From: Candidatus Fervidifonticultor secundus
Lineage (GTDB): Bacteria > Sysuimicrobiota > Sysuimicrobiia > Sysuimicrobiales > Humicultoraceae
Direction: 5' to 3'
DNA length: 45,579 nt
NCBI GenBank assembly: GCA_031459385.1
Contig: JAVKIP010000018.1
Span: forward strand, 1 to 45,579
How positions within the stretch are numbered: the stretch's first letter is position 1; each line of letters starts with the position of its first letter. Position numbers: made by a program. Shown piece by piece: positions 15,001-17,377 of this stretch.

Positions 15001-17377
15001 CTCGCCCGACGACGAGCGCTTCGGCCGGTTTGCGGCGAGCGCCCGGTTCCTGTGCGCGCCCGGCGCCGATGCCGCGCTCGCGCCGGAACTGCGCGCTGCG
15101 ATTCAGACCGCGACCGGCGTCGACCCCGGGGCGGTGGTGCGCTACCTCGACGGTGGGCACACGCTCGCCGAGGTCGCCGCCGCCAGCGGCCTCCGGGGCC
15201 CGCAGGTCGCGGCTGTGCTCGAGGTGCTCGTGGCGCGCCGGCTCGCGTTCCGGTACGTCAGCCGGTCCCGCCCGCAGACCGGCTCGCGGCTGCGGTAACG
15301 GACACGGCGGTGGCCGCGCGCCGATGTCTACCCGAGGGGAGTTCTGGGCAAAGTTCTTTGCGGAGAGTCTGCACCAATGTTCTGGGCGGTCTGTTCTGGC
15401 GCGCGCTGACCGCCGGCGACAACTGCATACCGCTCCCCGAACAGGGCAAACCCATCGCGAGGTGGGGGCGCAAAGCTGCGGGACCTGCGTGGTCGGCCGG
15501 GCTGCCGAAGGGATGCACCGTGGATCCTCGTGGGCAGTCCCAGGAGGGTCCGTTGTTTTTTCGGGGACGGGCGCGTCGCATGCGGACGAAAGGTCACGGG
15601 GAGGCCGCACGATGCCTGGGCGCAGTGGAGAGAGTGCCGTACCGGAGGTTGGAGCACACCGCATGGGCCGCGGGGCGGGCGGCGGGGAGGCCCGTGAGGA
15701 CGAGGAAGCGCTCATGCGACAGTACGCGGAGACCCGCGACCCGACAATCCGGGAGCGGGTGGTGGTGGCCTGCACGCCGCTGGTCCGGCGCATCGCCTCG
15801 GAGTTCGTCTTCTCTGGGGTCCCGACCGAAGACCTGGTGCAGGTCGGGTACATCGGGCTCCTGAACGCCATCGCCGCGTTCGACCCCACCCGCGGGGCCA
15901 AGTTCACCACGTACGCCAGCTACCTGGTCCGCGGCGAGATCCGCCACTACCTGCGCGATCAGCGCGACACGATCCGCAAGCCCCGGTGGCTGCAGAAGAT
16001 CAACACGCGCATCGAGGACGCTATCGGGCGGTACATCAGCGAGGAGGGACGGTTTCCCGGCCTCGAGGAGCTAGCGACCGAGCTGAACATCGAGGAGGAA
16101 GGCCTGCTCGAAGTCCTCCGGACGCGGGAAGCCCTGCGGACCATCGCGCTCGAGACCGATGAAGAGGGCAGCGACCTGCGCGTCGACCGGGAGCGCATCC
16201 GCCACCGCTCGCACGTCAGCTTCCAGCTGCCCATCGAGGACCGTGTGCTGCTGCTGGAGGCCATGGAGTCGCTGAACAGTCTGCAGAAAAAGGTGCTCTA
16301 TTACCTGTTCTTCACCGATCTGACCCAGACCGAGGCCGCCAGGCGCATCGGTATCTCGCAAAAGCACGTCTCGCGCGTCCTGGCCTCGGCCCTGGCCAAA
16401 CTGCGAGGCGTGATGGGCGTGGTGTCATCGGAAGTGATCTAGCGCAGGCGCTGGGCCGACTTGCCCCGGAACGACGCACTCGTCGCCGGAGGTTCTCGAA
16501 GGAGGGTAGATCATGTCGCAGCTCAAGGATGTGCTGGCGGATCTGGCCAAGGTGGACGGTGTCCTGGCGGCACTGGTCGTCAGCCGTGACGGGTTCGTCG
16601 TGGAGGGCGTGACCAGTGAGGAGGCCGTGGACCTCGAGGCCGTGGGCGCCATCGTGGCCAGCAACATCGCCGCCGCCGACTCCATGGGCCGGGAGATGGT
16701 CCGCGGCACCATCCGCAACCTGCTGTTGGAGTTCGACGAGGGCCCCGTCGCCATCGGCCCGGCCGGTCCCGATGCGATGCTGGTGGTCGTGGGGAACAAA
16801 CAGGCGAACCTGGGACGCATCCGCCTCGAGATGCGGCGCAACAGTCAGCTGGCGGCCGCGCTGGTATAGCGCCGGCCGCGTTTGCGGTCAGTCCTGGACG
16901 TACACCACCCGCAGGATCTCGTCGATGGTGGAGATGCCGGCGAGCACCTTCTCCAGCCCGTCGTCGCGCAGCGTACGCATGCCCTCGCGGATCGCCTGGG
17001 CCTTGATCTCGGTGGACGGCGCGCGCCTGACGACCAGCTCGCGGATGGGGTCGGTGACCGTCAAGAGCTCGAAGATGCCGATCCGTCCCTTGTAGCCGGT
17101 GCCCCGGCAGTAGTCACATCCCTGGCCGCGGTAGAAGACCACCTCGGAGTCGATGCGCTCGGCGCCCAGGCGCCCCAGGGCGTCGGGCGGCGGCGCGTAT
17201 CCCACCTTGCAGCGCGGACAGATGGCCCGCGCCAGCCGCTGCGCCAGCACGGCGATCACCGACGAGCTGATCAGGAACGCCTCCACCCCCATGTCGATCA
17301 GCCGGGTAATGGCGCCGGCGGCGTCGTTGGTGTGCAGGGTGGAGAGCACCAGGTGTCCGGTCAGGGCCGCCTGCACC

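What a model noticed while it worked through the whole genome (the two positions that open the first line are those of the whole stretch)
15436..16869. c-di-GMP riboswitch directly in front of an alternative sigma factor gene, kept across the phylum
A c-di-GMP-I class aptamer lies 152 nt upstream of a SigF/SigB-type sigma factor gene (g01056), which is followed by a Roadblock/MglB-like gene (g01057) and sits inside the type IV pilus gene region. I read it as a direct RNA link from c-di-GMP to a sigma factor, so that the messenger reprograms a whole regulon (probably pili and surface polysaccharide) without any protein receptor. New would be a sigma factor as the immediate, dedicated target of a c-di-GMP riboswitch.
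Evidence so far: rna.tsv: RF03167 c-di-GMP-I-GGC 65.1 bits (cut 59) at C10:15436-15510(+); g01056 at 15663-16442, Sigma70_r2+r4, 35% to M. tuberculosis SigF. Orthologs (46-80% id) were fetched from 19 other genomes of the order; 13 of 19 loci have a c-di-GMP-I or -GGC aptamer over the Rfam cut (61-72 bits) on the same strand within about 300 nt upstream of the sigma gene: 5 of 5 loci of this family, 6 of 6, 1 of 3 and 1 of 1 of three other families, 0 of 4 of a fifth. 48 papers hold c-di-GMP riboswitch+sigma factor+upstream of; the 12 listed concern mainly C. difficile, where, from recall, the switch precedes the long flgB operon that contains sigD.
(Added by a program. Inside this text positions count along the whole contig: contig position 1 is position 1 of the stretch shown here. 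"Call 12" and the like, gene names such as g00115 and contig names such as C1 are that model's own, and its searches are not shown. The text may have been shortened before it was handed on; [...] marks where a part breaks off. The agent that wrote the report below was given it as the finding of a first reader that could run no searches.)

Follow-up and report, generated by a model that had tools for sequence, protein, structure and literature searches.

The report
c-di-GMP riboswitch gating a sigma factor
A genuine RNA sensor for the bacterial messenger c-di-GMP sits in front of an alternative sigma-factor gene beside pilus genes in an uncultured hot-spring bacterium, is kept there in most of its phylum, and most likely shuts the gene off when the messenger is high; the RNA type is well known, but direct wiring to a sigma gene is unusual.

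Summary
A c-di-GMP-I class aptamer lies at 15436-15510(+) (RF03167 65.1 bits, RF01051 58.9 bits). It is followed by a hairpin plus U-tract and then a group-3 (SigB/F/G-like) sigma gene and a Roadblock gene. I place the sigma start at ATG 15612, 101 nt after the aptamer, not 15663.

The arrangement is kept in the only order held for this phylum (94 genomes). Aptamers were found in 28 of 28 orthologous loci of the window's family, 20 of 22 loci in family f3, 11 of 21 in f4 and 1 of 1 in f6. None was found in 9 assessable loci of f5.

The aptamers carry the canonical ligand-contact bases, not the 'GGC' variant base, so c-di-GMP is the likely ligand. The aptamer's 3' strand is complementary to the downstream hairpin. 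This is an anti-terminator in this family and an anti-anti-SD helix in f3, and it argues for an OFF switch (about 70%).

The sigma regulon, ligand binding and expression are untested. I found no paper describing this wiring, but this scan has already noted the same system on other genomes. I class it as a new member of a known kind, of moderate interest.

The parts
15369..15397 (+). Candidate housekeeping-type promoter (-35-like CTGCAC, 17-nt spacer, -10-like TGTTCT). It is weak in this genome.
   Evidence: Read by eye. Relatives of the family have TTGCAC-N17-TAnnnT at the homologous place. The tool's consensus scan found no promoter in 13300-17000.
15419..15431 (+). Conserved box (ACAAnTkmATAss) lying 4 nt before the aptamer. 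Its function is unknown: possibly a proximal -10-like element or a leader RNA element.
   Evidence: Present before the sigma aptamer in families f1, f3 (part), f4 (part) and f6. Not enriched genome-wide: 2 hits against about 1.3 expected. Similar CATA/AATA boxes precede other aptamers.
15436..15510 (+). c-di-GMP-I class aptamer (P1, P2 with a GCGA tetraloop, P3).
   Evidence: RF03167 65.1 bits and RF01051 58.9 bits. Covariation. The G20, A47 and C92 equivalents are G, A and C.
15497..15515 (+). Switching strand: the 3' strand of P3 and P1 plus 5 nt. It can pair with 15524-15544 to form an anti-terminator.
   Evidence: RNAfold of 15436-15545 gives this hairpin (local -24.5 kcal/mol). Duplex energy is -28.6 against shuffles at -19.5 +/- 2.7, with 1 of 200 shuffles as good. 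93.8% of cells pair in 20 relatives.
15522..15561 (+). Intrinsic-terminator-like hairpin (15522-15551) with tail GUUGUUUUUU (15552-15561).
   Evidence: Sequence and folds. The stem covaries in 20 relatives: 5 of 10 pairs are compensatory and 94.9% of cells pair. The simple consensus scan did not flag it.
15598..15604 (+). Shine-Dalgarno sequence GGGGAGG of the sigma gene.
   Evidence: Sequence. Relatives have GGGAGG/AGGAGG 5-8 nt before their ATG.
15612..16442 (+). Group-3 sigma factor gene (276 aa), SigB/SigF/SigG-like.
   Evidence: Pfam r2, r3 and r4. TIGR02980 scores 176.9 bits, below its cut-off of 234. The best solved relatives are 8x6g_H and 1l0o_C.
16513..16869 (+). Roadblock/LC7 (MglB-like) gene, second gene of the operon.
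   Evidence: PF03259, E 7.8e-17. It follows the sigma gene in f1 and f5, and lies further downstream in f3 and f4.
13518..13604 (+). Second, upstream c-di-GMP-I aptamer heading two unknown ORFs (13725-14489 and 14486-15298).
   Evidence: RF01051 41.2 bits. The ORFs have no family hit at E<=0.01. An upstream second aptamer is also seen in L102 and L109 and L023.

Best explanation
This is a canonical c-di-GMP-I (GEMM-I) riboswitch in the 5' leader of a two-gene operon: a SigB/F/G-like sigma factor and a Roadblock protein. It most likely works as a transcriptional OFF switch.

Shown:
- The aptamer is real, with a conserved structure and conserved ligand-contact bases.
- A covarying hairpin with a U-tract lies between the aptamer and the start codon.
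- The arrangement is conserved in four families of the phylum.

Inferred:
- Without c-di-GMP, the 3' strand of P3/P1 (15497-15515) pairs with the 5' arm and loop of the downstream hairpin (15524-15544). This forms an anti-terminator, so RNA polymerase reads into the sigma gene.
- With c-di-GMP bound, the aptamer keeps that strand. The terminator (15522-15551 plus U-tract) then forms and the sigma-Roadblock operon is shut off.
- In family f3 the same competition exposes or hides the Shine-Dalgarno sequence, which sits in the 3' arm of the hairpin.

The sigma factor would therefore be made at low c-di-GMP. The three pilin-like operons of this non-flagellated genome fit the same pattern, because their aptamers hold the SD in P1. 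What the sigma factor transcribes is not known.
For: Aptamer:
- Covariation: 98.9% of cells pair, 8 of 19 pairs are compensatory, 0 of 500 shuffles reach this.
- Ligand-contact positions: the G20 equivalent is G in 56 of 58 aptamers, the A47 equivalent is A in 58 of 58, and the C92 equivalent is C in 58 of 58. The roles of G20, A47 and C92 come from passages of PMC4744006 and PMC5888326.

Conservation upstream of the sigma gene, same strand, 79-322 nt before the conserved core:
- f1 28/28, f3 20/22, f4 11/21, f6 1/1.
- No aptamer before the two own-genome sigma paralogs fetched (L091, L092).

Terminator:
- The stem covaries.
- A hairpin plus T-rich tail is found in 26/29 f1, 10/20 f3, 10/11 f4 and 0/1 f6 loci.

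Anti-terminator:
- It is the minimum-free-energy structure when only 15436-15545 is folded.
- Complementarity beats dinucleotide shuffles (<=10 of 200 as good) in 19/29 f1 and 14/20 f3 loci.
- 93.8% of cells pair, against 28-62% for slid controls. The hairpin loop bases are invariant while the stem varies.

Other points:
- In f3 the start codon follows the hairpin directly and the SD lies in its 3' arm.
- In the own genome, three aptamers before pilin-like operons have GAGG of the SD in the P1 3' strand and a start codon 12-13 nt later.
- No flagellin was found in a genome that is 97.6% complete.
Against: - No ligand-binding, transcription or expression data exist, and no RNA run was listed.
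- The full-length leader folds into aptamer plus terminator even without ligand. The anti-terminator would therefore have to act kinetically during transcription.
- The leader's fold energy is not unusual (z = -0.80).
- The anti-terminator has no compensatory changes: 0 of 13 pairs, because one strand is the invariant aptamer core. Its shuffle control is uninformative.
- In f4 and f6 my complementarity test was not above shuffles (0/11 and 0/1). In f4 a different local hairpin was seen only by eye.
- Many f1 tails are only weakly T-rich, and the tool's terminator scan flagged nothing.
- Family f5 keeps sigma-Roadblock without any aptamer, so the switch is not essential to the operon.
- The related genomes are kin, so the counts are not independent events. 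The tree needs at least 3-5 gains or losses of the aptamer (quick tree only, the careful search did not finish).
Confidence: 0.62

Rival explanations
1. Same riboswitch, opposite sense. c-di-GMP binding promotes read-through (an ON switch), so the sigma factor is made at high c-di-GMP and drives a sessile or pilus-dependent programme.
For: The terminator is the thermodynamic default of the full leader, as in a default-off, ligand-on design. Class-II c-di-GMP riboswitches turn type IV pilin genes ON in C. difficile (search listings and abstracts, plus my own knowledge). The neighbouring PilB-like ATPase has a c-di-GMP-binding motif, which elsewhere activates pilus assembly (my own knowledge).
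Against: Both arms of the terminator lie outside the aptamer. The only conserved competitor for them is the aptamer's own 3' strand, which ligand binding would withhold. I found no relay element in the 11-nt linker. The f3 design gives the same OFF reading.
Confidence: 0.17
2. The aptamer senses a different ligand: 3'3'-cGAMP, as in GEMM-Ib, or an unknown ligand of the 'GGC' variant class. The link to c-di-GMP would then be wrong.
For: RF03167 outscores RF01051 here and in all 28 f1 relatives. Two relatives (L022, L026) have A at the G20-equivalent position, the change linked to cGAMP selectivity in Geobacter (my own knowledge).
Against: At the three ligand-contact positions the window's aptamer is G/A/C like Vc2. 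The position that is G in the RF03167 consensus is A here and in 58 of 58 aptamers. RF01051 also passes its cut-off by 24 bits. The locus is surrounded by GGDEF, HD-GYP and MshEN c-di-GMP genes. I could not read the paper that defines the GGC class, so the meaning of 'GGC' rests on recall and on the two Rfam consensus lines.
Confidence: 0.07
3. The aptamer plus terminator acts mainly as a separate small RNA, or as the 3' end signal of the upstream genes (13725-15298). It would not meaningfully control the sigma gene, which has its own promoter downstream.
For: The own-genus leader has an extra ~45 nt between the terminator and the SD, which leaves room for a promoter. No expression data exist.
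Against: In most relatives the SD and ATG follow the hairpin within 10-35 nt. In f3 the SD is inside the hairpin, leaving no room for a separate promoter. The aptamer travels with the sigma gene, not with the upstream genes, which differ between families.
Confidence: 0.05

Closest known systems
Cd1 (Cdi1_3) c-di-GMP-I riboswitch upstream of the flgB operon of Clostridioides difficile
   Same: A class-I aptamer with a terminator-type OFF platform. c-di-GMP thereby lowers an alternative group-3 sigma factor (SigD) and a motility programme (listings and abstracts, plus my own knowledge).
   Different: There, sigD is one late gene of a long flagellar operon. Here the sigma gene is the first gene after the switch, in a two-gene operon, in a genome with no flagellin found and beside type IV pilus genes.
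Vc2 riboswitch of Vibrio cholerae (upstream of VC1722/tfoY), the archetype of RF01051
   Same: The same aptamer class with the same G20/A47/C92 contacts. The target is also a transcription regulator.
   Different: The target there is not a sigma factor. P3 here is short and scores better with the RF03167 model. The expression platform here is a clear terminator/anti-terminator pair.
RsiG-sigma(WhiG) of Streptomyces: c-di-GMP arms an anti-sigma factor (PMC7005675, listing and abstract)
   Same: c-di-GMP directly lowers the activity of a group-3 alternative sigma factor. High c-di-GMP means the sigma factor is off.
   Different: A protein receptor acts on sigma activity there. Here an RNA receptor acts on synthesis of the sigma mRNA or protein.
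c-di-GMP-I-GGC variant class (RF03167)
   Same: It is the best-scoring Rfam model (65.1 bits), with a short P3 lacking the long tetraloop-receptor arm.
   Different: The base that gives the variant its middle letter (G in the model consensus) is A here, as in canonical c-di-GMP-I.

Membership tests
c-di-GMP-I riboswitch (GEMM-I, RF01051) | Covariance-model score above the curated gathering cut-off | tested here: met
   58.9 bits against 35. The clan sibling RF03167 scores 65.1 against 59.
c-di-GMP-I riboswitch (GEMM-I, RF01051) | P2 and P3 helices kept by compensatory change | tested here: met
   58 aptamers: 98.9% of cells pair, 8 of 19 pairs change on both sides, 0 of 500 shuffles reach this, and slid controls give 26-50%. 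P1 was not counted because its 5' columns were misaligned.
c-di-GMP-I riboswitch (GEMM-I, RF01051) | Ligand-contact nucleotides equivalent to Vc2 G20, A47 and C92 | tested here: met
   The window has G, A and C. Across relatives the counts are 56/58, 58/58 and 58/58. The roles of these bases come from PMC4744006 and PMC5888326 passages. The mapping uses the Rfam alignment plus recall of the Vc2 sequence context.
c-di-GMP-I riboswitch (GEMM-I, RF01051) | GNRA tetraloop on P2 docking into a receptor in P3 | tested here: inconclusive
   The P2 loop is GCGA (GNRA). P3 is short and I did not identify a receptor.
c-di-GMP-I riboswitch (GEMM-I, RF01051) | 5' leader position, same strand, with an expression platform that competes with the aptamer | tested here: met
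c-di-GMP-I riboswitch (GEMM-I, RF01051) | Binds c-di-GMP and changes gene expression | not testable with these tools
   No biochemical or RNA data are available.
c-di-GMP-I-GGC variant (RF03167) | G in place of the A47-equivalent base (model consensus CGCGAA against canonical CGCAAA) | tested here: not met
   The window reads CGCAAA, and 58 of 58 relatives have A. The meaning of the class name is recalled; the defining paper was not held.
SigB/SigF/SigG subfamily of group-3 sigma factors (TIGR02980) | Regions 2, 3 and 4 present, region 1.1 absent | tested here: met
   Pfam r2 at 63 bits, r4 at 44.5 bits and r3 at 24.1 bits, which is just under its cut-off of 25.3. The protein is 276 aa.
SigB/SigF/SigG subfamily of group-3 sigma factors (TIGR02980) | Score above NCBIfam's curated cut-off | tested here: not met
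   176.9 bits against 234.35. It is the best family but falls below the cut-off. FliA/WhiG scores 101.3 against 189.6.
SigB/SigF/SigG subfamily of group-3 sigma factors (TIGR02980) | Adjacent partner-switching anti-sigma kinase and STAS antagonist | tested here: not met
   None is present among the window's ORFs. HATPase_c_2 hits elsewhere in the genome are not near this gene. STAS was not searched.
Intrinsic (Rho-independent) terminator | G+C-rich hairpin directly followed by a U-tract | tested here: met
   Hairpin 15522-15551 (8 bp, a G-G mismatch, then 4 bp) followed by GUUGUUUUUU, with stem covariation. The simple scan did not list it; I think this is because its contiguous inner stem has only 4 pairs.

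The most novel reading that the evidence does not exclude
In this uncultured, apparently non-flagellated phylum, c-di-GMP riboswitches and this sigma factor may form one RNA-based circuit. The messenger shuts off the sigma gene directly. The sigma factor in turn may read the CATA-type boxes that sit just upstream of its own aptamer and of other c-di-GMP aptamers (autoregulation plus feed-forward). If so, a whole pilus or surface programme would be gated twice by the same messenger with no protein receptor, and the co-transcribed Roadblock protein would act as the sigma factor's partner in place of the usual anti-sigma kinase.
Probability: 0.1. Interest if true: 0.8.

Novelty: new member of a known kind. 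Interest (0 to 1): 0.45.

Why it matters
c-di-GMP usually reaches transcription through protein receptors such as FleQ, VpsT, BldD and RsiG. A riboswitch placed directly on a sigma-factor gene is the shortest possible route from the messenger to a whole regulon.

Here the arrangement is conserved across four families of a phylum that has no cultured, genetically tractable member. It therefore offers a sequence-readable handle on lifestyle control in these bacteria: the regulon of this sigma factor should be the low-c-di-GMP programme.

The element is also compact and portable (aptamer plus terminator, about 130 nt) and can be tested in vitro. I found no paper describing such wiring in the searches, judged from listings and a few passages. 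Gene lists in older supplements and in subscription journals were not seen.

This scan has already noted the same system in two other genomes of this lineage. It has also noted similar fliA cases in Chloroflexota and Planctomycetes (those notes are unchecked here), so this window does not add a first sighting.

Tried and rejected
- Complex prediction for sigma (A1) with Roadblock (A3): the queue was full, then the tool was declared unavailable. Nothing was folded, so whether Roadblock binds the sigma factor is open.
- Expression: no RNA holder was listed for 15300-16900.
- The tool's promoter and terminator scan of 13300-17000 found 0 of each.
- Whole-leader fold: z = -0.80, which is uninformative.
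- Genome-wide search for the conserved box: 2 hits against ~1.3 expected. I therefore dropped the idea that it marks a large regulon; it remains unexplained.
- Looked for aptamers in f5, L056 and L072 at E<=0.1: only the one already known in L072.
- Homologs outside the order (L172-L174, L177): no aptamer.
- The paper defining the GGC variant was not held. The NAR 2017 paper's main text does not mention it.
- The Sysuimicrobiota paper's main text has no mention of c-di-GMP, riboswitches, pili or sigma.
- Constrained folding with 70 nt of downstream sequence mixed many long-range pairings. I did not use its ddG values.
- The careful tree did not finish, so only the quick tree was read.
- The two ORFs behind the upstream aptamer gave no family.
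Full report
**What is there**

Rfam at gathering thresholds finds two members of the c-di-GMP-I clan in the window. RF03167 lies at 15436-15510(+) with 65.1 bits, and RF01051 lies at 13518-13604(+) with 41.2 bits. The canonical model RF01051 also scores the first site at 58.9 bits against a cut-off of 35.

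Downstream lie a sigma-70-family ORF with regions 2, 3 and 4 and a Roadblock/LC7 ORF at 16513-16869. NCBIfam places the sigma factor nearest the SigB/SigF/SigG subfamily (176.9 bits), but below that model's cut-off of 234. FliA/WhiG is second. The nearest solved chains are a 256-aa sigma factor (8x6g_H) and the SigF of 1l0o.

I place the start at ATG 15612, for two reasons:
- It has a GGGGAGG ribosome-binding site 7 nt upstream.
- The same-genus genome G001 aligns from residue 1 of this longer form.

Relatives start their genes about 28 codons before the conserved core.

**Surroundings**

The locus is dense in c-di-GMP and pilus genes:
- A GAF-HD-GYP gene (9318-10958) and a convergent GGDEF gene.
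- An SLT-TPR gene.
- The upstream aptamer with two unknown ORFs.
- The sigma-Roadblock pair.
- A convergent PilB-like ATPase with TPR and MshEN domains. It passes NCBIfam's c-di-GMP-binding-motif model (54.3 bits against 38).
- A KaiC/DnaB-like ATPase and a MerR gene.
- PilB, PilT, PilC and a pilin, followed by glycosyltransferases.

The genome holds eight c-di-GMP-I aptamers. Three precede pilin-like operons on contig C23. There, GAGG of the Shine-Dalgarno sequence lies in the 3' strand of P1 and the start codon is 12-13 nt after the aptamer (read by eye). That is the layout of a translational OFF switch. No flagellin gene was found in this 97.6%-complete genome.

**Is the aptamer real, and what does it bind?**

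I aligned 58 distinct sigma-associated aptamers (A2). Helices P2 and P3 pair in 98.9% of cells. 8 of 19 pairs show changes on both sides. No shuffle of 500 reaches this, and slid controls give 26-50%.

The residues that contact c-di-GMP in Vc2 are G20, A47 and C92 (passages of PMC4744006 and PMC5888326). Their equivalents are G in 56 of 58 aptamers, A in 58 of 58 and C in 58 of 58. The two exceptions, L022 and L026, have A at the G20 site.

The RF03167 consensus differs from RF01051 at the A47 site (CGCGAA against CGCAAA), and the window reads CGCAAA. The higher RF03167 score therefore reflects the short P3, not the variant's binding-site change. This rests on the two consensus lines and on my recall of what 'GGC' stands for, because the defining paper was not held.

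**Conservation**

The 'order' and 'phylum' searches return the same 94 genomes. Record titles of relatives call them Armatimonadota, Candidatus Sysuimicrobiota (CSP1-3), Candidatus Fervidifonticultor and similar names.

I fetched the best sigma hit per genome and scanned it with Rfam. The table shows how many loci have an aptamer on the sigma strand.

| Family | Loci with aptamer | Notes |
|---|---|---|
| f1 (window's family) | 28 of 28 orthologous loci (L010-L037) | Two (L014, L036) come from genomes flagged unpublished; without them 26 of 26. |
| f3 | 20 of 22 | L056 and the paralog-only L093 have none. |
| f4 | 11 of 21 | In a twelfth locus (L072) the aptamer precedes an ATPase gene, then the sigma gene. 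|
| f5 | 0 of 10 | One locus is cut by a contig end. None at E<=0.1 in 9 loci. |
| f6 | 1 of 1 | |
| f2 | not assessable | Cut by a contig end. |

Five further f1 genomes gave only a paralog, a cut gene or no hit. They are 59-84% complete.

Further points on conservation:
- The aptamer ends 79-322 nt before the conserved core of the sigma protein.
- The two own-genome paralogs fetched (L091, L092), f1 paralogs and four homologs outside the order have no aptamer.
- In a quick tree, the aptamer-bearing, Roadblock-linked genes form coherent groups. f5 branches outside them, and eight aptamer-less f4 genes form a Roadblock-less clade. At least 3-5 gains or losses are needed (the careful search did not finish).
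- In f3 and f4 the operon reads sigma, MerR, a small ORF, then Roadblock.

**How it most likely works**

After the aptamer comes a hairpin (15522-15551) followed by GUUGUUUUUU. In 20 close relatives the stem pairs in 94.9% of cells, and 5 of 10 pairs are compensatory. Under my criteria a hairpin plus T-rich tail is present in 26/29 f1, 10/20 f3, 10/11 f4 and 0/1 f6 loci.

The 3' strand of P3/P1 is complementary to the 5' arm, loop and first bases of the 3' arm of this hairpin. Several results support this pairing:
- Folding only what RNA polymerase has made up to 15545 gives this anti-terminator (-24.5 kcal/mol locally). Adding the rest of the 3' arm gives the terminator.
- The duplex is stronger than dinucleotide shuffles of the downstream segment in the window (1 of 200 as good). 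The same holds, at <=10 of 200, in 19/29 f1 and 14/20 f3 loci, but in 0/11 f4 and 0/1 f6 loci.
- In the alignment, the pairing holds in 93.8% of cells against 28-62% for slid controls. There are no compensatory changes, because one strand is the invariant aptamer core.
- The hairpin loop is invariant while the stem varies.

In f3 the 3' arm of the hairpin is the Shine-Dalgarno sequence and the ATG follows at once. The same competition there would hide or expose the ribosome-binding site.

Both designs read as OFF: ligand keeps the aptamer's 3' strand, and the hairpin forms. I put this at about 70%, and the existence of a functional c-di-GMP riboswitch on this operon at about 90%.

**Weak points**

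- There are no binding or expression data.
- The full leader prefers aptamer plus terminator even without ligand, so control would have to be kinetic.
- The consensus scan saw no terminator.
- Many relatives have poor U-tracts.
- f5 manages without the switch.
- The sigma regulon is unknown.

**Unexplained**

A 13-nt box (15419-15431) just 5' of P1 is kept in four families. It is not enriched in the genome. CATA/AATA-like boxes also lie 7-25 nt before many other aptamers of five relatives (read by eye). In f1 a housekeeping-type promoter lies some 45 nt further upstream. The box could be a second, proximal promoter element or a leader RNA element. I could not tell which.

**Comparison and novelty**

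The RNA class and the terminator mechanism are textbook. The closest known case is the C. difficile flgB-operon riboswitch, which lowers SigD as one gene of a long operon. Streptomyces RsiG-WhiG links c-di-GMP to a sigma factor through a protein.

My literature searches (listings, plus passages) found no paper that places a c-di-GMP riboswitch directly on a sigma gene. Supplements and subscription papers were not seen.

Earlier notes of this scan describe the same sigma-Roadblock system in two other genomes, and describe fliA cases in other phyla. The finding is therefore real and worth a bench test, but it is neither a new kind of element nor a first sighting in this scan.

Noticed in passing
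window 13518-15298 (+): A second c-di-GMP-I aptamer (41.2 bits) heads two overlapping ORFs (13725-14489 and 14486-15298) with no family hit. The second has a weak C-terminal HTH-like match (E 0.011). A second aptamer upstream of the sigma aptamer also occurs in L102, L109 and L023.
   Followed up: partly
window 16888-19350 (-): The convergent PilB-like ATPase carries an N-terminal TPR region and an MshEN domain. It passes NCBIfam's MshE-type c-di-GMP-binding-motif model (54.3 bits against 38). The locus therefore also has a protein c-di-GMP receptor.
   Followed up: partly
window 9318-12000: A GAF-HD-GYP gene (+) and a GGDEF gene (-) converge at about 10955. A weak Roadblock-like ORF (12038-12397, E 0.002) and an SLT-TPR gene follow. 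An SLT-TPR gene also lies upstream of the riboswitch in the one f3 locus examined (L040).
   Followed up: no
L022 and L026 (aptamers at 1301-1378): Two closely related genomes have A instead of G at the G20-equivalent position of the sigma aptamer. This change is associated (from recall) with cGAMP or relaxed selectivity. Their closest relatives keep G.
   Followed up: no
window 15419-15431; L053 upstream region: A conserved box (ACAAnTkmATAss) lies just before P1 in four families. It is duplicated in tandem in L053. It is not enriched genome-wide (2 hits against ~1.3 expected).
   Followed up: partly
L161 752-836 (-): A c-di-GMP-II-GAG variant aptamer (RF03169, 51.1 bits) lies on the opposite strand near a sigma homolog in a MAG labelled Bacillota.
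   Followed up: no
G000 contig C23: 137097-137181(-), 138187-138269(+), 145617-145699(+): Three aptamers precede pilin-like (N-terminal methylation motif-like) operons. The SD lies inside the P1 3' strand and the start codon is 12-13 nt after the aptamer, the layout of a translational OFF switch. No flagellin gene was found in the genome.
   Followed up: partly
window 21260-21499 (+): A small ORF (about 80 aa, no family searched) lies between the MerR gene and pilB. In f3 and f4 a small unknown ORF likewise follows MerR inside the riboswitch-controlled operon. Possible homology was not tested.
   Followed up: no
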